NCBI GenBank assembly: GCA_964016885.1
Contig: OZ024740.1
Span: 177,134,001-177,198,000 of the forward strand
Source: Eledone cirrhosa
Taxonomy: Eukaryota
Direction of reading: 5' to 3'
Length of the DNA stretch: 64,000 bases
The notes under the pieces are model-generated. The model saw nothing but the letters and a program-made list of their open reading frames with translations. It was not told the DNA's origin and did no database searches. This document shows positions 4,093 to 62,263 of the stretch, piece after piece. The translations under genes were made by a program, and so were the position numbers. Positions within the stretch are counted from its first letter, which is position 1. Each line of letters begins with the position of its first letter.

Positions 4093-5416
4093 AGTAACAA
4101 GACTCACTATTTAGCCTTAACAAAATGAATATATATACGATACGTATATACATACATACGTATGTGTGTGTTATGACTGTATGCGCGCGCTAATATAACT
4201 GTTATTACTAACCACCATTTCCTCCAGGTAGCTGCATGTGTATATGAGCATATTGTTTGTACATGTACGTTTGTAATAGTTTGTTCCTGTGTGGGGGTGC
4301 TTGTAAGCTTCAAAGACAAGCGATGCACCAGAGCGTAAAACACTCGACACACTATCTTATTTACGCATCAATAACGCCAGCGATGATTTACAACAGATCA
4401 CCACCTTATTTTTAATACCACTCACTCGGAGTGCCTTTTTTTATATTCTGTATTGAAATGAAATTTTAAAAAAGAAAAATATATCTGTATTTCCCATGGG
4501 AAGAGACCTTAACTGTAGTGAAATGAAGGTGTATTTGTTAATACTCATGTCATTTTAGATTTATGGCTCTCACCTATGTAGGTTTAACTAGCTTCTAACG
4601 AGGCTGCATCGCATGAGAGGATTCTTGGGTGTTTTAATGACGGGGAGTGGGGCACATGCGTATTAATGAAAGCAATGTGAAATAAAATATCTTACTCAAA
4701 AACACAACGAGACGTCCAGTACAGGAATTGAAACCATTACTGAATCTAATCACTAGATCAGAAATTTCCACATAATATTCCACGAACCCTAAGCCAAATA
4801 GGAAAAAAAAAATTACTTTTCAACTACGCGGCGCTCTACCTGCTAGAAATTGCAGTACATTTTCCATCTAATCATACGCTAAGCGTTATATGTATAAATA
4901 AATAAAAACACGTGTGTTGTGTGTAGACATGTACACATATATTTATGTAAATGTATGTTTATATTGACAGCTGATCAAGAGTTGTTTGATCCCAAAATGT
5001 CCACCTACTTTGTGTGGTCTCTGTACCAAACTATCTCCCGTATTTGATCGTTTCTGTACTTCTGTGTTTTTACCTTGTTTGTTACCAATTCTGCAATTAG
5101 TTATCCTGGAGATGTGATACAGTCCCATCCACTAGTTCGTGAAGTTGTTTACAACTATTACTGCTGTTACACCTACAATTACTACAGTGAACATACTCTA
5201 TCATAAAGATCTTCTTGTTCTATGTTACACAAAGTTCATTTTAACTATCACTTTGTCTTTGTCATATTCCTTCATGTAAGTTTTTTTTTTAATTTACATT
5301 TTCCGATCTTCTGCAAGACATGTTTACTCTATCGTTCCTGTCTGCGTTCTTGCACCTCTTTACGTTTCGTTTCTCGCCATTTAAAATACTAAAAAATTTT
5401 TTCCATACGCTGACGC

Positions 5417-5466
<50 letters not shown>

Positions 5467-5467
5467 G

Positions 5468-5510
<43 letters not shown>

Positions 5511-5624
5511 ATATGCATACATTTATATGTATGAGTATATAAATATAAACGTGCAAGCACAGACACGCTCCCCCTTCTTTCCTTTTACACACACATACAT
5601 TCACGCAGGCAGCAGACGTAAAGA

Positions 5625-5710
<86 letters not shown>

Positions 5711-9086: not shown

Positions 9087-9089
<3 letters not shown>

Positions 9090-9393
9090 AGCAAAAGGGA
9101 TATTTAATTTGTTGGTAATTCAACAAATATATATGTTTATACCTGATTCGAAGCACTCGACATATTTTCTGGAGTATATTATCGATGATATAAAAATAAA
9201 TGGAAACTATATTTATAAAACCATATTTATTCTATTATATATATTTCAAGGGTACCAAAACTTTGGTACGCACTCATCAGATAAAATACAAAGTTTGTTT
9301 TATAAATAGTGACATGTCCAGGAAGAAGATCTTAACGGTTCAAGTTTTTCAGGAAAAACCCGAACCGTTAAGATCTTCTTCCTGGATATGTCA

Positions 9394-9486: not shown

Positions 9487-9629
9487 TTTATCCCGGGTTC
9501 AATCGGGGGTAACCACAGTAAGTAAGGTACTCAATACAAAGCAGAGTATATATATTTAATATAGATAGACTTGTACAGGACTAGAACTGTTTCATTCGTA
9601 GACGTTACAATACAATAGGAGGCAGCATA

Positions 9630-12302: not shown

Positions 12303-15300
12303 GAACAGTTGGCCCAGGCGTGGAGGCTAATTAAACGGGAGAAGTCCTGGGCAAACCTGACCATTGCGGACGGGGCAATAGCGGCCATGCAAAGGAGGAC
12401 GGTGTACTTTCGATGCATTTCGGTGCAGACACGAAAAGTGGAACTTGCCAGCCAAGCAGAGGTCGAGGCTGCTTTGGAGTAAATCGGAAGTGACATAGAG
12501 TATAAAGCGAGAGCCAAACAGTTCGGTACCATCTCGGTACTGTTCAAAACCGCGGAGCTTGCTATTAAGCACTCGGTGACCCCCTGCAGAACGGAACGCA
12601 TTATCATACAACCGTCCTACATGGGTAAAAGGACAGTAAAGGTCTGCCTTCCCAGCATCCCACCAGGAATGAACATATGGTGGCTGCTGGGATGCGTAAT
12701 TGAGGAGGGGACAGACACTACCCTCCTGGATATCAAAAGGACAGAGAGAGAAGACTGGTCCGGAATGGATTTGGAGATTCTTCTCCAAATGAAACCGGAG
12801 GACATGAACAACATCCCGGATTTTGCCCGCCTGCAGGACGGGACAACAATCCAACTAATCACTGAGGGAAGAAGGCCACACTGCTTCGTCTGCGGAGAAG
12901 CAACGCATCTACAAGCCTTCTGCCCTCAGCGCAAAATTGCAGGGCGTCGCAAACCTCCTTTGTTGCCAACGCCAGTGTCAGCACGGAAAGCTGCACCACC
13001 ACCACCAAAAACAACACCAACAAAGACACGGACACCAACATCAAAAACAGCCGGACCACCACCAGCACCGAAACCAATCCAAAGGGAAAACGAGAAAAGC
13101 TCCCCCCCCCCCCCCCCCACACCAATTATTCACATAGACAAAACAATAAACGCACACACAAACACAGAGACACTCTAAGCCACAGACCCTTTGTCTTCCA
13201 GCAGCGAAGATGAAGGAAAACCCAAAAGTGCAAAAAAACCCAGAAAACTCACCCCCCAAAAAAGCCCCAATAAAACACAAAAACAAACACAACAAAAAAT
13301 ACAGACACCAATAACGCAAATACTTCCCAAATAACATCAGCACCAACAGCAACACCGAGACCACCCCCACAATCCCCGAAAAGCAAACAACCTAAATAAA
13401 CACAAGTACAAATAAACACACAAATACAAATAAACACACAAATACCTGAAATTGCAGACACCACACCTACAACAAACACAGACATACCCGAAACAACACC
13501 ACCAAAACCATCACCACCACCACAGTCACCAAAACGAAAACAAATAAAACCAAACCAAAAAAATGTTAAAAACTTCGTACTTGTCAGAAGGGCCATCGAT
13601 AAATTGATGGCCCTCTTATCACGAAGCGCGCACATTCAAACAGAGGGGGAGATTTTTGAAATGAGCACATTTTGCGTGCCAGAAGATTTGCTTCTGGTCC
13701 GAATGTCACTCGATTCCTTCAAAGAAATTCGGGAGAGCTTTCCTCAAGACGTGGGAACCCCGAATGTGAAACCCACATCGAGACTTTTAAAGGGGTTCCC
13801 AAAATAAACCCCACCAACCATGGAGGTCGAACCACCCGACCTTCACAAGACCCCGGGAGGTAAGTAAACCTTCCCTCTCTCGGATGTGTGAGGCCTTTCG
13901 CCAAAACTTTGTTCGGTTGTTCGGGGAGAATGGCGAGTCAGAGAGAGTAGCGGATTTCAGGCCCTACCTTGACGGCTTGCCGCGCATCTCCACGGTCGAC
14001 GCTGAGCGCTGCGAAAGGCCGATTACTTCAGCCGAAATTCAGGACGCCCTTGTCGGCTGCATGAGGGGCAAGTCACCCGGTTTGGATGGCCTGCCCTACG
14101 AACTTTACGTAAATATGCCAGACTTGTTCTCCGATCTCCTCGAAGCACTATACTGCAACTGGCAACAGAATGGGAGTATTCCCAGTTCTGTGAGCAGGGG
14201 AGTGGTGACGCTGATAAGGAAAGACGAGAACAAGAGGAATACATTAGACAACTTCAGGCCAATAACTCTGCTCAACACAAAGTTTAAGATTTTGGCCAAG
14301 GTGTTAGCAAAGTGATTGGCGCTTTTCGTCGAGGATTTGGTTGGGGAGGCGCAAACTTGCGCAATCCCAGCCAGGTCCATACACGACAATCTCCACCTCA
14401 TGCGATACATTATAGAGAGGGTGGGTGTAAGCCTGGCTTCGGTGGGGCACTGAAGGAATATGAAAGGTTGACAGGAGCCAAACTTAACTCGGAATAGTCG
14501 GTGCGCTTGCAGTTCGGAACCTGCAGACGCAAGCCCATGCCGTCCAACAGCGTCGTGGGGCGCTGGACGGGCGGACCGGTAAAGTTGTTCGGAGTTTGGT
14601 TCGGACAAGACCTCCAGGTGGAAAAGAATTGGGACGTGGTAACGAGCAGAGTAGCCAGTCTCACCCAAAATGGGCTGGGAGGAAGCTATCACTGAAAGGT
14701 CGCGCGGAGATAGCGAATGCGTACATCTCGTCCGTCATCTACTACCGCCTGACTGTCGTGCCTTGCCCCCGTCCGCGCCTCATCAAGTTGGAACGGCTCC
14801 TCTTCAAATTCTTGTGGAGGGGACAAGTTCCGTTGGTGAGGCGGTCCATCTGCTGACAGCACGCTCTACGCGGAGAGCTGGGCATGCCGTGGCTAATGAT
14901 GCGCAGACATGCGCTGAGGCTGCGACATTTTCGGATATTCTGCCTAAACGGTGAACAGGTGTGGTCGCCGTTTATCAGACGGGCCTTTCCGCAGCGCGTT
15001 TCTCTGACTAAGCTGCAGTCCTGGGTCAAGAAGAGACCGAGACTGGGTGACTGGCACCTGGAATGTTTCCAGGCACTCATTGCCCTCTACCAAGCGGGCA
15101 ATGCGATCAGTGGAACTTCCACTCTCGAGTTCTATAGAGAATTAGTGGTGGGCAAGTGCGATGACGCACTCGGAGAAGCTTCGGGCCTCGACGAAGTCAA
15201 ACTGACCAGTCTGAACAGGAGGACTTTCGAGCCGAGGACGATGGACAATTTCCAGAAATCCCTCGCTTGGCAGTGCTACCGTGGGGCACTGCCAGTTCGG

Positions 15301-15770
15301 GATAAACTCTACAGGCATGGAAGTTCTGTCAGACGGACCTGCCCAAGATGCGCACAGAACGATGAAACCGTTCTGCACGCACTTGTCCAATGTCCGTGCA
15401 TTACTTACTTGTGGAGTTATGTCGAACAGCTACTGTCGCGTGTGGAACGAATCTGGCTTTCTGCCGAGTCCATAGTGAAGATTGACCCACCGCCCTCCTT
15501 AGGTCAGGAAGTGCAGGAAATTTTCCTGTCTGGTGGCAGTTGCGAAAGAAGTTAAATGGTGGACCAGGTTAAAAGGACTGAAGACAGACACTTTTCTCTT
15601 CGGCCAATCCCTCATCAACTTCTTCAAGTTTCAACTGGAAAGGAAGGTGAGGGTGGAGAGAGAAGTGCTGCCCCCCCCCCCCCCCCCGAACATTTGCTAA
15701 AAGGTAGATGAATGTGGCGAGAATGGCCCGTGTGAATGGTCCTACTCTGACCATGCGCCTTTAGGCTAGC
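12302..15770 (+). mobile_element. L1/Tx1-clade LINE, internally deleted and frameshifted
   Basis: ORF1 with CCHC knuckle CFVCGEATHLQAFC (~12880); ORF2 RT pieces KSPGLDGLPYELY, NFRPITLLNTKFKILAKVLA, LSLKGRAEIANAYI; zf-RVT CPRCAQNDETVLHALVQC; endonuclease and central RT motifs not seen. Confidence 0.9.
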
Positions 15771-24131: not shown

Positions 24132-24325
24132 GTAGGAGGTGAGTTTTATTGTAGCACAATAAAGCAATGCAAATATCGGATAAGTAGCACTCAACCGTTT
24201 ATAGGACTGGAGTATAAATAATATAAAATCAAAAGATGGTTAAAAGAGTTCCATGTATTTTATTATGCGCATTTCAAAAACAAATATCATCATGGAACTC
24301 TTTTAACCATCTTTTGATTTTGTAT
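24132..24325 (-). mobile_element. Short fold-back PLE-like end with 3' part of a hammerhead
   Basis: 35-bp inverted arms 24221-24255 and 24291-24325; reverse complement (a)TGATGA..GAA-ATGCGCAT-A-ataaaa; flanked by (TA)n. Confidence 0.7.
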
Positions 24326-35612: not shown

Positions 35613-36219
35613 TCAGGTCATCAGATGGTGCTACTGGTAACATGTATCCCAGTACAACCTGTCTCATGGTCGGGTCGTTGGCGACTAAACTGGCAATCCC
35701 ACCAAGGTTTCTTGGTGAGGAGGGTGACTTTGGACATCCTGCAGGACTAAAAACAAAACCTGTCAAAGGGCAAAGGAGCTCTTAAGAGTCAATGGCCATC
35801 CAAAATCATCGGCAGAGATGACCCCTTAGCCTTTGTCAAGGCAGAATTCTAGGAGAAGGAAAACTCTGATATAACACCTGCAACCCTGATGGTATCCAAT
35901 GATGTTGACTTGTTGTTCTTTTTGGTAAATATCATCTTGGTTAAGAGAGTGGGACTGGCTTTGTGCAGTGCCTTTGCTCACTATAAAAGCTTCACGGCAC
36001 AGGCATCTCTTTGTATCTGGAGATCTCTCTGCACTTGTCGTCACATGGTACCATGGGCCCAGCACTATGTGTCAATAATTGTCACAAGTGTAGTGTTTGT
36101 ACCAGAGTTTCCAAGTCGCTGGGTGGACTAAAAAGTCACACTCGTTCAGCGCATCGGTGGGGGTTTTCCCACATGGATATAAAGTAGTGGCCGTACTCGA
36201 AAACGAGTTGGCAGCCACC
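35613..36219 (+). mobile_element. Short non-autonomous RTE-derived element with 11-bp TSD
   Basis: atgtagacatg at 35602-35612 and 36220-36230; near-identical to 20268-20877. Confidence 0.85.
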
Positions 36220-36296
36220 ATGTAGACATGAGTGTATGTATATTTGAGTCTACGTATGTAATATATGCATATTTTTCATTGTGGCTTTTCCTTGAT

Positions 36297-37514: not shown

Positions 37515-38305
37515 TTACAGAACTTCTTGGTCCACAATATTTGTGGTTTTAGCGTTTGGAGCAAATGCATAAAGGTTTCTTTTGCTTCCCACTCTGGAAC
37601 ATCCAACGTATAGCTGACCGGGCGAAAAGCATGGCTCTTCTATGTTTATACCCGCGACGGACAATGTTTGCCCCTGAGACTTATTTATCGTCATAGTGAA
37701 ACTACAATGAACTGGAAACTGGAGCCTCCTAAATGAAAAGGAGATCTCTGATGTTGACGGACAAAGGGGAATCCTTGGGATAAGAACATTTTCCCCCTTT
37801 CCACACCCCGAGAGAATCGTCGCCTCGATCAAGTTTTGCGTTACTTTATTTACTGTAAGGCGGGTGCCGTTGCAGAGTTTTGGTGGGTGTAGATTCCTCA
37901 AAAGCATAATTGGGCATCCTTGCTTAAGTTCCAATCGATGAGATGGCAACCCGGAGGGGTTCAATGAGTTAAGAAACTCAATTGGGTAGTTAATGGGGTC
38001 TGTGACTGTATCGATGGACTTGTATGTACACGAAGCTGTAGGAAGAGACTTAAGCAGTTGTACCTTGATTTTGTCGACAGTTTCAATTTTCGAAGCCACT
38101 ATTGCCCTTTCGCACAGCCAGTTTGGATTTTGGTAGTTAGTGCTCAACTCAGGGAATACTGCATCTGTCAAGTCGTCAGCACTGTCGACTAAAGTGCAGA
38201 CCCATTCGAGGGAGATTTTTTCATCTTCATAAAGTGGCACTTTGCCGTTCCCAAGTGTCAATAGGTTGGTAGCAAAATCTGATGACACTTGGTCACTAAG
38301 CGTCC
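37515..38305 (-). pseudogene. PIF1-like SF1B helicase C-terminal half of Helitron RepHel
   Basis: YPIEFLNSLNPSGLPSHRLELKQGCPIMLLRNL..LCNGTRL; LQFPV..FTMTINKSQGQTL; GQLYVGCSRV; Rep domain and Walker A absent. Confidence 0.92.
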
Positions 38306-38445
38306 GAGCTTTCGTGTTCGTACACACACACGTACACACACACGTACACACACACACACACAGACACACACACACACACTCACGCACGCAAACGCTCAAA
38401 CGCACGCAAACTCACGCACGCACGTGTGCACGTACACACACATAT

Positions 38446-45241: not shown

Positions 45242-45440
45242 TAGGAAAATGTTAGACCCCGACGGCAGAGCTCAAGCCGTTTCGACGGCTATTTCTGGAG
45301 TCCACAAATAGCCGTCGAAACGGCTTGAGCTCTGCCGTTGGGGTCTAACATTTTCCTAGTACCCACTCTGCTACCCTAATAATTGAGTACTCTGGTGCGT
45401 TATGGTTCATCTGGTTCCTTACCACACCTCCTTCGTTAAA
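45242..45440 (+). mobile_element. Fold-back PLE-like end in (TA)n
   Basis: 53-bp inverted arms 45242-45294 and 45306-45358; GAAAC next to the hairpin; ACTC..TTGAGTAC motif downstream. Confidence 0.7.
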
Positions 45441-47026: not shown

Positions 47027-47158
47027 TTAAAGAGAAAAGAAAACAAAACCTTCGTCATTTTGCCCATGTGCAGAACTTTTGCTATCAACTTCTATTTCTA
47101 AATTTTTCTCCTTTATACTTGTTTTCAGACATTCTTTCTTGTATCTTCTAATGTATAA

Positions 47159-47208
<50 letters not shown>

Positions 47209-47212
<4 letters not shown>

Positions 47213-49270
47213 ATAAGACTAAAATCCGAAGAGGGCTCGAAGAGGATAATATTTATAAAAATATATAAAACCGTAGAGCAAATATTTATTAAAATAACAG
47301 ATTAAACTTTAAGCAAAGAATCGCTGCTTTCACCCTTAACGGGATCTTCTGAAACTAAATAAAATCAATGTGTGAACGCCGAGAATCATTCGGTTTCCTA
47401 AATAGAATATTAGTCTACGACTTCATTTATACCATAAACGTGGTTTTGTCTTTGCATGTAATTGTTCTCATCGTTCCACATAATGACGTATTTGCCTGTG
47501 TGAGTGTGGAGAAGAGAGAGCGAGAGAGATTTCGAGTTTCCAATTTAGTTCAGCTTTAAACTCAATTACTAAAGAATTAGGACAATGGGATTGATGAGTT
47601 AATATCTGTATACAACAACTACAACGGTACGCGATGGGGCCCACCAACAGCCCCGGCGGACAGAATGGAAAAGACGTTTCCTCGGAGGATGGCAAGGGAG
47701 ACGCGCTGGAACAGCCACTCCTACTCGCGGGGCTTACACCTGCGGCTGGCCAGCTCAGCGCCTATGGTAGTGAGTAAGGAGCTAGCCCTGGGGCCGAGGA
47801 CACCAGAAGTCTCCACTGCCAGGGTTACGACCGCAAACCTGTCGGAGAGCGACCGGTATTTGAGGAGTTTGGCCCCCTCAGCCCGACGTGCAGCAGAACC
47901 TGGGTCAGTCGCAGCCTGAACCAGGTTGCGGCTGCAGAAAGTGTCGGTGCAAGTGGCATCCCAGACGAGGGGTTTGCCACCACGGAACGGGAAGATGGTC
48001 ATGCCATCTGGCCTTTTGCCGTCCCCTCGATCCAGCCCCACCGGCTCGAGCTGGGAAGGGAAGCCTGCAGCGTCCAAGCCATACTTAATGACCTCGTTGA
48101 GTGCATCTTGGCGTGGAATGCGGCCGGCACTGTGATGACAGGAAAGCGGGTGGAGGCCGAAATAGTCCACGGTGGAACCGCAGCGACATTGGTGTGGCTG
48201 GCAGATCCGGAGGCCGGGCCTTAGGGAAACGCCGATGCGCAGGGTATGGTTGTCTAGCTGCGTGCAAGTGGAGAAGGAGGGCAGGGCGTGGAGCTAGGCA
48301 CCACTGTAGGGTTTGGAAGCCGCACGAAAACAAGCAAGGCGGTGCTGGTCCAGCTGGCGCGTGAGCCTGTCTGAGGCCAGGCTGCACTGGATGGCATCCC
48401 AAGTGCGTTGGGGGGACTTGATGTCAACAGGGTAAGAAGGAGGAGGGACATCTACTGAGCTAAGTCCCAGCCGGTCCCACGTCTCACAGGAGGCCTCACG
48501 TTCTCTGAACACAGAGGGTTCTGCTGTGTTTTTAAGAACCCTGCTGACGAGGACGCGGCCCGCGGTTACCGACGAAAGATACGCCGGCAAAGCTAGTGAG
48601 ATCGGAGACCGGAGGCCAAGGCCGCCATACCTGACAGGTAAAGTGGCCTGTGGTCACCCTATGTCGTCAAACTTGACGTTGTATATCTCCTCGGCTGCTG
48701 CTCGGATACAAGTATCGAGATCAGCGAGGAGAGATGTCTGGGTGTAGCACGGAGCGCTGCGAAGTGTATAGAGGAGCTTCGGCATGGCGAAGCAGTTCCT
48801 CAGTAGAAAGAGAGCTGGGTGGCCGTCAATCAAGCCCAGTCGGCTCGTGAGAGTCTGGAGTTGTTGAAGCCAGGGCCTGGTGGTGGAGCGGATGGCCGGC
48901 GGGAGGAGCGGTGACCCGAGGATGAGGACATCCTCTTTGGGGGTCACCTGAACCTGGCGGAGAATGGACTGCACGTCCAAGACGTATTATCTTCGTTTTT
49001 TTTTCGTTCATTGCCAGGGAACGTCTTCACGAACCAAAGTATCGTCTTCCTGTTTTCCTTCGGTTGCAACGTTTTTCGAAATATTTACTTCTGCGTTCAC
49101 AGATTGATTTTTTTTAGTTTCAGAAGATCCCGTTAAGGGTGAAAACAGCGATTCTTTGCTGAAACTTTAATATGTTATTTTAATAAATATTTGCTCTAGG
49201 GTTCTTATATATTTGATATATATTTATCCTTATCGAGCCTCTTTGAATTTTAGTCTTCAAATTTATTATT
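47209..49270. mobile_element. PLE-like inverted arms (~175 bp), each with a hammerhead motif, enclosing a CRE fragment
   Basis: 47209-47382 resembles the reverse complement of 49090-49270; HHR-like at 47306-47356(-) and 49116-49166(+); (TA)n outside. Confidence 0.7.
47628..48980 (-). mobile_element. CRE-clade non-LTR retrotransposon 3' part (RT thumb, zinc finger, restriction-like endonuclease)
   Basis: LLRNCFAMPKLLYTLRSAP; GGLGLR; HPLSC..GR..LEPVGLDRGDGKRPDG..VWDATCTDT..LAVETSG; GC-rich; frameshifted. Confidence 0.85.
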
Positions 49271-51173: not shown

Positions 51174-51667
51174 CTTTCAACATTTTCTAATCCAGTATAA
51201 TCTACAGATTTGGATACTGTAAACGTTTTTAACATTTACGTTTAAATATACGCCATGTATTGAGTTCTATATGGTTTAATTATGTATCTATATATATATA
51301 TTCCACTGTTCTATCTTCCAAAGACCAATTAACTTGCAGGCCCCTGCAAAAGGATTTTGTTGATTTCGGATTTACAGAAACCTAGTGGAGATGTTATATA
51401 ATATTATGTAATATAGCCACGATGGTCCAGGTAACTGTCAAATATTTCCCCGAGTCAGTTTTTTCGTTGTTCTGGTCCTAGTGGCTCGCATTTCGGTCGC
51501 TGGCTTCAATTTGCATATCTGTCTAAACGTAATGTTATAACTCTAAGGTAAAATTCCTTATTGAGTGCTTTCGGCTGCACTTCCCGACAGCATTCGTTAG
51601 CTTGCCAGCAACCAGAGCTTCTATTATGCTGTACTACTTTCTTATCTCTATATACTCGTATATATAC

Positions 51668-56220: not shown

Positions 56221-56225
<5 letters not shown>

Positions 56226-56670
56226 GATATTAACAAATGGAAACTATATTTATAAAACCATATCTATTTTATTATACATATTTCAAGGATACCATGTTAA
56301 ATTATGGTATGCTTTCATCAGACAAAATACAATATATACCAGTTTTATAAATAAATATTGACATAACCTTTCAAAATGCAACCGTTAGTTTTGGAAGACA
56401 TCAGGATGTCTTCCAAAACTAACGGTTGCATTTTGAAAGGGTATGTCAATATTTATTTATAAAACTGGTATATATTGTATTTTGTCTGATGAAAGCATAC
56501 CATAATTTAACATGGTATCCTTGAAATATGTATAATAAAATAGATATGGTTTTATAAATATAGTTTCCATTTGTTAATATCGTATATTTACTCCAAATAC
56601 TTGTCGAGTGCTTTATATCAGTTTATAAAAATATTTGCTTGTTGTATCCCAACAATTTAAATAGAACTTT

Positions 56671-56673
<3 letters not shown>
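56221..56673. mobile_element. Family A hammerhead element as a near-perfect palindrome with 182-bp arms, in (TA)n
   Basis: Arms 56221-56402 and 56405-56586, 2-nt AG loop, one mismatch seen; 3' extension to 56673. Confidence 0.9.
56480..56540 (+). ncRNA. Type I hammerhead ribozyme (mirror copy 56267-56327 on minus)
   Basis: ttttgt-CTGATGA-aagcATACCATaatttaacATGGTATcctt-GAA-ATATGTAT-A-ataaaa. Confidence 0.85.
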
Positions 56674-56764
<91 letters not shown>

Positions 56765-56765
56765 C

Positions 56766-57484
56766 ATGTCAGGTCGCTCTCGAGTGCTACTGGTAATATG
56801 TAACCCAGTACAACCTGTCTCACGGTCGGGTCGTCGGCGACCAAACCGGCAACCCCATCAAGCTTGCTTGGTGAGGAGAGTGATATTTGGACACCCTGCA
56901 GGATGAAATATAAGACCCGGCAACAGGGCAGAGGAACTCAGCAGTCAACGGCCATCCAAATATTACTGTTTTTTTTTTTCACTTGCGAGTGAAAGGCCCC
57001 CAGTTGTTGTCACAACACCTTTCTAGGAGAGGGAAATTTTGAAAAAAAAACCTGCGCCATCGGAAGCATCCGATGATGTTTACCAGTTATCCTTTTTCGG
57101 TTGTGTTTTCGATGTTCAGAGGGTGGGATTGGTCGATAGCAAGGCCTTTCCCCACTTAAAAACCTTCAAAGCACAAGCATTTCTTGTTCAGGATCTGTTA
57201 CAGGTTCGTGTGGCTGGCCGTAGCCTAAAAGTTCACCATTTTCTGTAATCTGACAAGCGATTGCAATACTCTTAACAGAGTTTGCAGTCATCATACATAT
57301 TATATACGTATATGTATGTATATATGTATATATATATTACTATATATATATATATATATATATAAGTATTGAAGTTTCCGTTGAAAATTGAAAAAGTCAT
57401 AGGAGTGAAGAGTGCTCTATGTAAGTACCAGAGCTAAATTTAATGTATAATATACAATACAATATAATTACCTCATTACCAGTA

Positions 57485-60280: not shown

Positions 60281-61018
60281 ATATTTTGTCTTTTTTAATC
60301 TGATCATTTGATCTTTTAGAACAGGTGTATCCGTTATTCCTACTTTTGTGGCCACCACCTCTTTTTGGTGCTCCAGAGGAAGACATTAAATTATGAGTAA
60401 ACAAGGTTTGTCATAAATATTAGAGAAACTGAATGTTGCCACGAAAAATAATAGCTGGACACTCGACTATACCAATACTTTTGTTTGCATAATAAACCAA
60501 AAACCATTTTTTCACGAGTTGAGAGGTCTATAAGGGCGTTCGCTCAAAGTTGAACAAACAACATCACAGAGAAAAGGGTTAAACAAATATTATCCCACCC
60601 ACCCCCAAAAATTATTCAACAACAACGATAACGACAACCAAAGGTAACTGAAACAAAGCTTTAATTTTTTTAATTGCATTGCACTCGGTATGTATGGGAT
60701 CTTAACAGCGAGTGCACGCTTATATTTCCCACATAATCACCACATAACAATGTCAGCTGTGTGTTTATTACTGAGAAATACCAACCTTCTTTTTTACATA
60801 CTCATGACACACAATACACACTGGAAGATTTCATACTGTGTTTGTATACATACATAAGTATATATATATTATATATATATATATATATATAATTTCTACA
60901 CACATTCGCAATATACATACATATATAAACATATATACATATATATATACATAAAATATATATAATTTTTTGAATAATATATATATATATAATTACTTAT
61001 TTGTTTATATACTCACAC

Positions 61019-61811: not shown

Positions 61812-62263
61812 TATTTTCCGTTGTGTTGTAATATAAATATTACACACAGTAGATTATCAGCTCACGTAGAGTTTGCTCGACGGTTCCAGTTGTAGTTCCA
61901 AAAGTAATCCGGAGAAAAATAGAAAGATTTGAATGGATACAGTTTAGTTGAAAGGAATTTATTGACACGTGTTTCTATAACAGTTACATAACCTAAAACA
62001 GCTATCTACAAACTTTTAGTTATGCAGACATTCAATATTTCAATGTTATTATTTACTGTCATTTCATCAGAATAATATTACTGAGGACCTATTTAGTTTT
62101 TATAGAGAATATTAGGAGGGAGGGGTGAAGTTGTTAGAAGAATAGTTGAAGGAGTGGTTTTTTGATAGCAGTGAGAATTCTTGGTGGCAGTGAGTAATTA
62201 GATTCCCATCTGTTGTTTTTACATTTTTTATAGAATATATTATTGGTTATTTTTCTAAATCTA

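What the first reader, a model, noticed from the sequence alone, without database searches (positions are those of the whole stretch)
9153..9175. Shared ACTC-(variable loop)-YGAGTRC stem downstream of hammerheads in otherwise unrelated families
Seen: ACTCcagaaaatatgTCGAGTGC (9153-9175, -), ACTCtgctttgtaTTGAGTAC (9527-9547, -), ACTCcagtcctataaacggTTGAGTGC (24187-24213, -), ACTCtgctaccctaataaTTGAGTAC (45365-45390, +), ACTCtaaggtaaaattccttaTTGAGTGC (51540-51568, +), ACTCcaaatacttgTCGAGTGC (56590-56611, +); weaker cases near 1520, 49194-49237 and 61874-61904. Where an HHR or GAAAC remnant is present, the motif is on the same strand, between it and the (TA)n end. Inference: a conserved cis element (RT or endonuclease recognition, or a second structured RNA). 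I do not know a description of it.
Basis: partly seen in the sequence, partly recalled or inferred. Interest (0 to 1): 0.75.

Follow-up and report, generated by a model that had tools for sequence, protein, structure and literature searches.

The report
Start-site hairpin of Hydra-type Penelope retrotransposons
The shared motif is a small bulged hairpin at the tail end of Hydra-type Penelope-like retrotransposons and of many short non-coding repeats lodged in TA microsatellites; it is also present in coral and sea-cucumber relatives and likely tells the element's reverse transcriptase where to start copying.

Summary
All six sit at the stated coordinates: 8 pattern matches against 1.09 expected. 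In 464 kb around the window, 88 sites fit the widened pattern. Of these, 58 have a (TA)n run 20-160 nt downstream on the same strand, against a 16.5% baseline (p=5e-25).

The "variable loop" is really an upper stem that covaries. The structure is a lower stem ACUC/GAGU (or GCUC/GAGC, a compensatory swap), a 3' bulge U-Y, then an upper stem.

The carriers are Hydra-clade Penelope-like elements (PLEs) and at least 19 flank families of mostly short derivatives. The same hairpin appears by eye in published Hydra consensi from a coral and a sea cucumber. The papers I searched do not describe it.

Full-length copies carry two such hairpins. Inserted copies end a few bases 5' of one or the other. This parallels the two internal reverse-transcription start sites and the "tail" shown biochemically for Poseidon (PMC11167929).

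Inferred function: a recognition and start-site signal for the reverse transcriptase (RT). Earlier reports of this scan on other pieces of this genome reached the same reading.

The parts
56590..56611 (+). Hairpin hp1 of family A2: ACUC-CAA-AUAC-UUG-UC-GAGU-GC.
   Evidence: The minimum-free-energy fold gives the bulged hairpin.
56612..56674 (+). Tail of family A2, 63 nt here, running into (TA)n.
   Evidence: In 30 genomic copies the tail is 62 nt in 28, 63 nt in this copy and 68 nt in one. In full-length copies the same tail is followed by 'tatactct' and a second hairpin.
56486..56542 (+). Minimal type-I hammerhead-like motif of A2. By my hand fold the cut would lie between 56534 and 56535, 55 nt before the hairpin.
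   Evidence: The core was found. The fold is by hand from the sequence. Rfam gives no hammerhead hit at E<=10.
56225..56589 (.). Long palindrome of A2. The left arm is the reverse complement of the sequence that ends 2-7 nt before the hairpin. A hammerhead-like core lies on each arm (56281-56321 on the minus strand).
   Evidence: offset 2.
9153..9175 (-). Hairpin hp1 of family A1, the site of the finding.
9088..9152 (-). Tail of A1 (65 nt) up to (TA)n.
9244..9280 (-). Hammerhead-like core of A1, 68 nt upstream of its hairpin.
9527..9547 (-). Hairpin of family B: ACUC-UGC-UUU-GUA-UU-GAGU-AC. The tail is 42 nt.
24187..24213 (-). Hairpin of family C. The tail is 56 nt. The inverted arm ends 11 nt before the hairpin.
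45365..45390 (+). Hairpin of family D, which has no hammerhead core. A 113-nt palindrome ends 6-7 nt before the hairpin.
51540..51568 (+). Hairpin of family E: ACUC-UAAGG-..-CCUUA-UU-GAGU-GC.
   Evidence: z = -2.8.
47234..47279 (-). Variant hairpin (V type) with lower stem GCUC/GAGC. Its tail runs into (TA)n at 47154-47209.
49193..49239 (+). It is the inverted partner of the hairpin at 47234-47279.
   Evidence: (z = -2.4).
57412..57434 (-). Hairpin of the GCUC/GAGC class: GCUC-UGGUA-CU-UACA-UA-GAGC-AC.

Best explanation
The motif is a short bulged RNA hairpin belonging to the 3' 'tail' region of Hydra-clade Penelope-like retrotransposons (PLEs) and of their many non-coding derivatives in (TA)n microsatellites, and it likely acts as the signal that the element's reverse transcriptase (RT) binds so as to begin DNA synthesis a few bases upstream of it.

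Shown: the hairpin has a conserved lower stem ACUC/GAGU or GCUC/GAGC, a 3' bulge U-Y, a covarying upper stem and then R-C-U. Where a hammerhead-like core is present, the hairpin lies 41-70 nt downstream of it. It lies about 40-110 nt before the (TA)n junction. Full-length elements of two families carry two copies, hp1 and hp2, 42-70 nt apart just before the ORF. Inserted copies end either a few bases 5' of hp1 (no tail) or a few bases 5' of hp2 (tail containing hp1). At both places the element's last bases are followed by a UAUA-like run.

Inferred: the RT, bound to a hairpin, primes on the nicked (TA)n DNA at that UAUA run. Extension of both DNA strands would give the inverted arm that lacks the tail. 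Short repeats that keep hp1 would be copied in trans by the same enzyme.
For: 1. Structure. A covariance-model search gave 61 hits (E<=10) in 464 kb. On their alignment 94.1% of cells pair, against 79.3% in shuffles (0 of 500 shuffles reach it). The covariation score is 0.391 against 0.160 (0 of 500). 6 of 8 pairs show changes on both sides. The closing pair is A-U in 42 rows and G-C in 10. G.U cells number 19 against 4 A.C cells, which favours the sense strand. Upper-stem pairing exceeds loop shuffles: 37.9 against 16.0, sd 4.0, 0 of 5000.

2. Carrier. Long versions of family A encode an ORF of up to 749 aa with YRDD, DKT, RWR, a CxCX5C linker, GIY..YVG, CxxC and CxH, and only one Cys between GIY and YIG. 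These are the hallmarks listed for the Hydra clade in PMC8557442, section read. At least 101 copies have 91-100% amino-acid identity. The V-type hairpin flanks two diverged PLE ORFs as direct pseudo-LTRs.

3. End points. In L123 the order is hp1, a 62-nt tail ending ..cttttgca, 'tatactct', hp2, then ATG. Both hairpins are also found in L124, L107 and L111, and hp2 alone in L106. 28 of 30 A2 copies end exactly after the 62-nt tail. In the V family, copies end ..TTATTAC|(TA)n, which is 6 nt 5' of hp2 in the upstream pseudo-LTR. The right end of copy P3 stops no more than 4 nt before the hairpin position, while its inverted left arm carries the hairpin and tail. 26 of 59 sites have an inverted arm whose outer end lies no more than 25 nt 5' of the hairpin. 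5'-truncated copies L010, L011 and L027 point to target-primed reverse transcription.

4. Conservation. The hairpin is seen by eye in 3 of 6 published Hydra consensi: Hydra-2_Amil, Hydra-2_Ajap and, as a twin, Hydra-1_Ajap. Hydra-1_Crog has a near-variant.

5. Precedent. The Poseidon PAc enzyme starts reverse transcription at two adjacent internal sites in a stem-loop downstream of the hammerhead. The tail is the stretch between those sites, and both DNA strands are cut and extended (PMC11167929, main text up to the start of Methods read).
Against: There is no biochemical or RNA evidence here. No RNA run was listed.

Single hairpins are weak: -2 to -11 kcal/mol, z from -0.3 to -3.3. In 2 of the 13 intended sequences the minimum-free-energy fold was not the full bulged hairpin: family G folds another way and family B forms the lower stem only. 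Only 6 of 15 families show 3 or more consecutive upper-stem pairs in the copies used.

The pair counts were made on an alignment fitted to the model, and related copies inflate them.

Progeny that end 5' of hp2 lose hp2, so how tailed copies multiply is unexplained. Candidate answers are master copies or read-through into (UA)n.

Two of the 6 published Hydra consensi (Hydra-1_Obim, Hydra-1_Amil) and one related PLE copy here (P2) show no clear hairpin.

The Poseidon stem-loop is described as AC-rich. This hairpin is not.

45 of 59 sites have no hammerhead-like core within 250 nt.
Confidence: 0.6

Rival explanations
1. The conserved sequence is read as double-stranded DNA by the GIY-YIG endonuclease (tail recognition). 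This would guide cleavage or resolution of the insertion, and the hairpin potential would be secondary.
For: PMC11167929 reports earlier work in which the Drosophila virilis Penelope endonuclease needed the tail sequence for recognition and cleavage. PMC8557442 attributes tails to endonuclease-mediated resolution. The lower stem and the flanking R-C-U are conserved in sequence, not only in pairing.
Against: The upper stem changes sequence while keeping pairing. The closing pair switches A-U to G-C on both sides. G.U outnumbers A.C by 19 to 4. A duplex DNA site predicts neither. The insertion targets are (TA)n, not the hairpin sequence.
Confidence: 0.15
2. The hairpin serves the RNA in another way: helping the nearby hammerhead to fold or dimerise, stabilising or localising the transcript, or ending transcription. 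It would not act in RT start-site choice.
For: The spacing from hammerhead-like cores is fixed at 41-70 nt in 13 of 14 cases. In Poseidon the hammerhead cuts only with protein bound nearby.
Against: Family D and most sites (45 of 59) keep the hairpin without a hammerhead-like core. Copy ends coincide with hairpin positions in three families, which this reading does not explain.
Confidence: 0.12
3. It is the end hairpin of a rolling-circle or other DNA transposon (Helitron-like) that targets TA.
For: The insertions lie in TA-rich DNA. There is a hairpin near one end and an asymmetric inverted repeat. A Pif1-type helicase fragment lies in the window.
Against: The long versions encode RT plus GIY-YIG, not Rep/helicase. 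There are no TC..CTRR ends. The 5' truncation with a constant 3' end fits reverse transcription. Hammerhead-like cores accompany the hairpin.
Confidence: 0.02
4. The sharing is chance, or simple descent within one recent family.
For: Several sites belong to large young families: family D has 13 sites and family A has 9 of the 59.
Against: Enrichment in the window is 8 against 1.09 expected, and 58 of 88 sites have a downstream (TA)n against a 16.5% baseline. There are 19 flank clusters. The hairpin is present in consensi from other phyla.
Confidence: 0.02

Closest known systems
Internal RT-initiation stem-loop and 'tail' of the Poseidon PLE of Anolis (Frangieh et al. 2024, PMC11167929)
   Same: Both are stem-loops tens of bases downstream of the hammerhead cut site. 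Both have two adjacent start points, with the stretch between them forming an optional tail. The tail is typically present at only one end of an insertion. In Poseidon both target strands are extended, which fits the inverted arms seen here.
   Different: The PLE clade differs (Hydra, not Penelope/Poseidon). The Poseidon loop is described as AC-rich and lies inside the ORF. Here there are two copies of one conserved bulged hairpin before the ORF. The tail is about 60-135 nt including hp1, not 30-40 nt. Start points are inferred from genomic junctions, not measured. Poseidon starts need no homology to the target, whereas here a UAUA run could pair with (TA)n.
Hydra clade of C-terminal-endonuclease PLEs (Craig et al. 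2021, PMC8557442)
   Same: The protein hallmarks, insertion into (TA)n and hammerheads near the 3' end all match. The hairpin is visible in that paper's own consensus file.
   Different: The paper's main text contains neither 'hairpin' nor 'stem-loop', so the element is not described there. Here the clade is very abundant (85,228 first-look candidates for one family) and has many non-coding derivatives.
3' stem-loops that LINE reverse transcriptases recognise and that SINEs borrow, such as eel UnaL2/UnaSINE1 and the R2 3' UTR (the eel and SINE examples are recalled; for R2 only a search listing was seen, PMC11194090)
   Same: A short structured RNA near the 3' end is shared by autonomous elements and their non-coding parasites, followed by a microsatellite-like end.
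   Different: The enzyme class differs (PLE RT with GIY-YIG). The conserved module is only about 25 nt, occurs twice, and marks internal starts, not the RNA 3' end.
Animal non-LTR retrozymes (Cervera and de la Pena 2020, PMC7229834; Li et al. 2026 preprint, abstract only)
   Same: Both are short non-coding repeats with type-I hammerheads thought to be mobilised by PLEs.
   Different: Retrozymes are described as tandem repeats that give circular RNAs. The elements here are dispersed single or palindromic copies in (TA)n, many without a hammerhead. A text search of PMC7229834 found no 'hairpin', 'stem-loop' or 'microsatellite'.

Membership tests
Hydra-clade PLE (the autonomous partner of family A) | [quoted passage not shown] | tested here: met
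   The ORF reaches 743-749 aa, with YRDD, then ..VVY..YVGST.. at the C-terminal end. Pfam itself gave no hit on the two ORF pieces, so the motifs were read by eye.
Hydra-clade PLE (the autonomous partner of family A) | The linker Zn-finger is modified to CxCX5C, the CCHH motif is absent, and CxxC and CxH flank the conserved E and N. | tested here: met
   CNCRNKSNC is present. There is only one Cys between VVY and YVG. CDLCIEE and CCRH are present.
Hydra-clade PLE (the autonomous partner of family A) | DKG changed to DKT, and an RWK motif in the N-terminal part. | tested here: met
   P0002 has SDKTNNLY and RRIRWRAF, that is RWR and not RWK.
Hydra-clade PLE (the autonomous partner of family A) | Insertion into (TA)n and a hammerhead in the pseudo-LTR. 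| tested here: met
   (TA)n lies at both ends in most of the 30 copies. A hammerhead-like core lies 63 nt before hp1, but Rfam gives no hit.
Hydra-clade PLE (the autonomous partner of family A) | Placement inside the Hydra clade in an RT/EN phylogeny. | not tested
   No tree was built. The published protein sequences could not be brought into the tools.
PLE tail / internal RT-initiation stem-loop (Poseidon type) | It lies downstream of the hammerhead cut site in the repeated end region. | tested here: met
   By hand fold the hairpin is 55 nt after the predicted cut in A2. It is 41-70 nt after the GAAA of the core in 13 of 14 sites.
PLE tail / internal RT-initiation stem-loop (Poseidon type) | There are two adjacent start sites, and the tail is the sequence between them, often present at one end only. 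| tested here: met
   Genomic ends lie 5' of hp1 or 5' of hp2. Inverted arms lack the tail in 26 of 59 sites. These are junction positions, not measured starts.
PLE tail / internal RT-initiation stem-loop (Poseidon type) | The RT binds the RNA there and starts cDNA synthesis there. | not testable with these tools
   This needs purified protein and RNA templates.
PLE tail / internal RT-initiation stem-loop (Poseidon type) | The stem-loop is AC-rich. | tested here: not met
   The hairpins are U/A-rich, with the conserved ACUC/GAGU or GCUC/GAGC stem.
Hammerhead or other Rfam ribozyme (for the hairpin itself) | A match to a curated covariance model, or the CUGANGA and GAAA cores. | tested here: not met
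   There are 0 gathering-score hits in the window and no relevant hit on 56440-56690 at E<=10. The hairpin lacks the cores.
Helitron / Helentron 3' end | A Rep/helicase partner, 5' TC and 3' CTRR ends, and a hairpin about 10 nt from the end. | tested here: not met
   The partner encodes RT plus GIY-YIG. The 3' ends vary and none is CTRR. The hairpin lies 24-110 nt from the end.

The most novel reading that the evidence does not exclude
A hairpin of about 25 nt is a portable 'start here' tag for Hydra-clade Penelope reverse transcriptases. The enzyme, a sister of telomerase RT, anchors on the hairpin and begins copying at the UAUA box just 5' of it. This would resemble the way telomerase RNA helices next to the template position the enzyme. 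Two tags in tandem would create the enigmatic PLE tail. A single tag would be enough to turn any transcript lying in a TA microsatellite into a parasite. The tag has been kept since before cnidarians, echinoderms and molluscs diverged.
Probability: 0.3. Interest if true: 0.8.

Novelty: new variant of a known kind. Interest (0 to 1): 0.6.

Why it matters
How Penelope-like elements are copied is the least understood mechanism among the major retrotransposon classes. So far only one enzyme, Poseidon of Anolis, has given in vitro data, and those data showed internal initiation in a stem-loop and explained the 'tail'.

A short hairpin with a defined sequence and structure, present twice and coinciding with the two alternative ends of inserted copies, gives the Hydra clade a concrete RNA signal that can be mutated and tested. 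It would explain three things: why tails occur at one end only, why inverted arms stop where they do, and why one enzyme family can support a swarm of unrelated-looking non-coding repeats that fill TA microsatellites in this 3-Gb genome.

It is also a practical marker for annotating such repeats, which Rfam-based scans miss.

Tried and rejected
- Rfam. There were 0 hits at gathering score. At E<=10 the 150 rows listed of 337 were low-complexity microRNA-like matches in the microsatellites and palindromes. Nothing relevant was found on the A2 3' region.
- Pfam on the two pieces of the family-A ORF gave no family. The RT and endonuclease motifs were read by eye.
- Other PLE clades. In the 30 best GIY-YIG loci of the genome the motif is absent between the ORF stop and the microsatellite (0 of 30). 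Two incidental hits lie elsewhere in those loci. The hairpin is therefore not universal to PLEs here.
- MAFFT could not align the hairpins. I built a covariance model from four equal-length sequences instead. That model missed family C and the V type.
- A tetramer-descriptor scan around (TA)n arrays was too noisy to serve as a control.
- Tails. No common second structure was found (z from -3.1 to +0.9 in 18 tails).
- One blastn link between an ACUC family and GCUC families looked like low complexity. I did not use it as evidence of a within-lineage swap.
- Sequencing runs. No RNA holder was listed, and no reads were laid.
- The supplements of PMC11167929 held no text on the stem-loop.
- Notes of this scan for the place itself were empty.
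- The Helitron reading was considered because of the TA target, the end hairpin and a Pif1 fragment. I rejected it once the long copies showed RT plus GIY-YIG.
- The seventh sequence folded was a mistyped reference to unrelated DNA and is ignored.

Full report
**Observation**

The pattern ACTC-N8-25-YGAGTRC occurs 8 times in the window, against 1.09 expected from shuffles; 0 of 100 shuffles reach 8. The other two are the two strands of one palindrome at 60681-60715. It has no microsatellite 10-160 nt downstream, and I treat it as unrelated.

Read on the motif's strand, every true site shows one architecture:
- (TA)n
- often a long perfect palindrome
- sometimes a CUGAUGA..GAAA core
- the motif
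- 40-110 nt of family-specific tail
- (TA)n again

**Wider sample**

The window lies in a 3.0-Gb genome. I fetched 200 kb on each side. They reduce to 45 distinct sites with (TA)5+ within 160 nt downstream.

With the pattern widened to allow a G-C closing pair there are 88 sites. 58 of the 88 have (TA)5+ 20-160 nt downstream on the same strand, against 16.5% of random positions (p=5e-25). Two families end in (CA)n instead.

With the hairpin masked, the flanks of 59 microsatellite-linked sites form 19 blastn clusters. The sharing is therefore not one recent family.

**It is a bulged hairpin, not a stem with a free loop**

In many families the bases next to ACUC pair with the bases before a conserved U-Y:
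- UAAGG/CCUUA
- CAA/UUG
- UACU/AGUA
- GUCC/GGAC
- UGGGG/CUCUA
- UGAG/CUUA
- CGGA/UUCG

Consecutive upper-stem pairs sum to 37.9 over 15 families, against 16.0 (sd 4.0) for shuffled loops; 0 of 5000 shuffles reach the observed value. Only 6 of the 15 families reach 3 or more consecutive pairs in the copies I used.

MAFFT could not align the hairpins. I therefore built a covariance model from four equal-length sequences and searched the 464 kb. This gave 61 hits at E<=10.

The search revealed a second class with lower stem GCUC/GAGC, that is A-U replaced by G-C on both sides. Its upper stems also covary (UGGU/ACUA, UGAU/AUUA, UGUA/UACA, UGGU/ACCA and others).

On that alignment:
- 94.1% of cells pair, against 79.3% in shuffles (0 of 500 reach it).
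- The covariation score is 0.391, against 0.160 (0 of 500).
- 6 of 8 pairs change on both sides.
- The closing pair is A-U in 42 rows and G-C in 10.

G.U cells outnumber A.C cells 19 to 4, which points to the sense strand.

Three caveats apply. The alignment was fitted to the model. Copies are related by descent. Single hairpins are weak (-2 to -11 kcal/mol, z from -0.3 to -3.3), and in 2 of the 13 intended sequences the minimum-free-energy fold was not the full bulged hairpin.

**What carries it**

The 211-nt 3' part of family A2 has at least 29 further copies listed at 100% identity, and 1323 first-look candidates. In the 30 loci examined:
- The tail is 62 nt in 28, 63 nt in the window copy and 68 nt in one.
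- 16 copies start right after (TA)n with the reverse complement of the sequence that ends 7 nt before ACUC, and 3 more start with close variants of it.
- 3 copies (L010, L011, L027) are 5'-truncated in the right arm.
- 1 copy (L019) starts with other sequence.
- 7 copies have no (TA)n run within 520 nt upstream of the hairpin.

Three of those seven share 1.6 kb or more of upstream homology. They encode an ORF with YRDD, SDKT, RWR, the linker CNCRNKSNC, VVY..YVGST, CDLCIEE and CCRH. The ORF is intact at 743-749 aa in several copies. At least 101 copies have 91-100% amino-acid identity.

These are the hallmarks that Craig et al. 2021 give for their Hydra clade: CxCX5C, no CCHH, DKT, RWK, CxxC and CxH, insertion into (TA)n and hammerheads (PMC8557442, section read). 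Pfam gave no hit on the two ORF pieces, and I built no tree.

tblastn found five diverged relatives (35-63% identity) in the 464 kb. Two of them are flanked on both sides by the V-type hairpin as direct pseudo-LTRs.

By contrast, the 30 best GIY-YIG loci of the genome belong to other PLE lineages. None has the motif between the ORF stop and the microsatellite (0 of 30). One related copy (P2) has only a degenerate version.

**Conservation outside this genome**

The supplement of PMC8557442 holds six Hydra consensi. I read them by eye, because they could not be loaded into the tools.
- Hydra-2_Amil carries GCUC-UACAC-..-GUGUA-UU-GAGC-A-CU downstream of its hammerhead, about 30 nt before the consensus end.
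- Hydra-2_Ajap carries GCUC-UGCU-..-AGCA-UA-GAGC-A-CU.
- Hydra-1_Ajap begins with two such hairpins about 32 nt apart.
- Hydra-1_Crog has a near-variant with a U.U in the lower stem.
- I saw none in Hydra-1_Obim or Hydra-1_Amil.

The paper names Acropora millepora and Apostichopus japonicus among its species. The hairpin therefore spans Cnidaria, Echinodermata and this genome.

The main text of that paper contains 'hairpin' and 'stem-loop' zero times. The metazoan retrozyme paper also has neither word. Three further literature searches found no description. That is the extent of my claim that the element is undescribed.

**Where copies end**

A note of this scan on another piece of the genome spoke of twin hairpins behind the points where copies end. 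I tested this.

In a full-length family-A copy (L123) the order is hp1, the 62-nt tail ending ..cttttgca, 'tatactct', a second hairpin GCUC-C..G-UU-GAGC-GC, 19 nt, then ATG. Both hairpins are also found in L124, L107 and L111, and hp2 alone in L106. Inserted A2 copies end exactly at ..cttttgca|(TA)n.

In the V family the upstream pseudo-LTR reads hp1, 42 nt, hp2, ORF. Inserted copies end ..TTATTAC|(TA)n, which is 6 nt 5' of hp2.

The other kind of end lies just 5' of hp1:
- The right end of copy P3 stops no more than 4 nt before the hairpin position, while its inverted left arm carries hairpin and tail.
- The left arm of the long family-A element ends at the A of ACUC.
- 26 of 59 sites have an inverted arm whose outer end lies no more than 25 nt 5' of the hairpin, usually abutting (TA)n.

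All three layouts occur: tail on the right only, tail on the left only, and tail on both sides (window 47234-49239). This is what PMC8557442 describes for PLE tails and inverted 5' copies.

**Mechanism**

For Poseidon of Anolis, Frangieh et al. 2024 showed the following (PMC11167929):
- Reverse transcription starts at two adjacent internal sites in a stem-loop downstream of the hammerhead.
- The tail is the stretch between the two sites.
- Both DNA strands are cut and extended.

The twin hairpins here give the same picture for the Hydra clade, with a defined signal. The inferred steps are these:
1. The RT binds hp1 or hp2.
2. The nicked (TA)n end primes at the UAUA run just 5' of the bound hairpin.
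3. A start at hp2 gives tailed copies that contain hp1. A start at hp1 gives tail-less ends.
4. Extension of both strands gives a palindrome with one tailed end and one tail-less end.
5. Short repeats that keep hp1 would be copied in trans.

Shown: the structure, the positions, the carriers and the junctions. Not shown: binding, the start sites themselves, and how tailed progeny, which lack hp2, go on multiplying.

**The hammerheads**

14 of 59 sites have a CUGANGA..GAAA core upstream on the same strand. 13 of those lie 41-70 nt from the hairpin, and helix II differs between families. By hand, the A2 motif folds as a minimal type-I hammerhead with a 2-bp helix III and an 8-bp helix I. Rfam reports no hammerhead in the window or on that stretch. 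Family D and most other sites keep the hairpin without such a core.

**Verdict**

The element belongs to a known kind of system (the PLE tail and internal initiation), but as a conserved, twinned, cross-phylum RNA motif it appears undescribed in the papers I searched.

Noticed in passing
window 37515-38411 (-) and 36193-36233: An ORF piece matches the Pif1 helicase 2B domain (E=1e-17). About 1.3 kb downstream on the same strand lies a perfect short hairpin ACTCG-TTTT-CGAGT-AC, preceded by tggtggctgcca. That hairpin recurs 9 times in the 464 kb. It may be a Helitron-like 3' end.
   Followed up: partly
window 14857-15555 (+): An ORF piece carries a zf-RVT domain (E=1e-9). With the neighbouring ORFs from 12483 onward on the same strand, it is likely a decayed non-LTR retrotransposon.
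   Followed up: no
window 47248-47382 and 49090-49224: 135-nt inverted arms (87% complementary) of V-type pseudo-LTR ends, each with hairpin and tail facing outward into microsatellites, enclose 1.7 kb that has no Pfam or PLE protein match.
   Followed up: partly
L042:484-522 (-) and L070:9508-9540 (-): Two related elements with the same hairpin end in (CA)n and not (TA)n. This suggests a sub-lineage with another microsatellite target.
   Followed up: no
L102:2844-4637 (-): A 598-aa ORF with RVT_1 and a PHD finger lies next to a family-A PLE copy. A second copy occurs elsewhere in inverted orientation. It is a separate retroelement.
   Followed up: no
L001-L030 and L104-L133: Family A is very young and very abundant. 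At least 29 further copies of a 211-nt stretch are listed at 100% identity. Its PLE protein, rich in Asn runs, gave 85,228 first-look candidates, and several ORFs are intact.
   Followed up: partly
window 79404-79650 in sample coordinates (L051, about 5400-5650): Another family has twin hairpins 56 nt apart on one strand and an inverted copy beside them. No ORF was found nearby by tblastn.
   Followed up: no
window, whole: The window is packed with dinucleotide microsatellites (98 Tandem Repeats Finder rows). These produce hundreds of spurious microRNA-like Rfam matches at lenient thresholds. The window also holds 200 N, which I did not locate.
   Followed up: no
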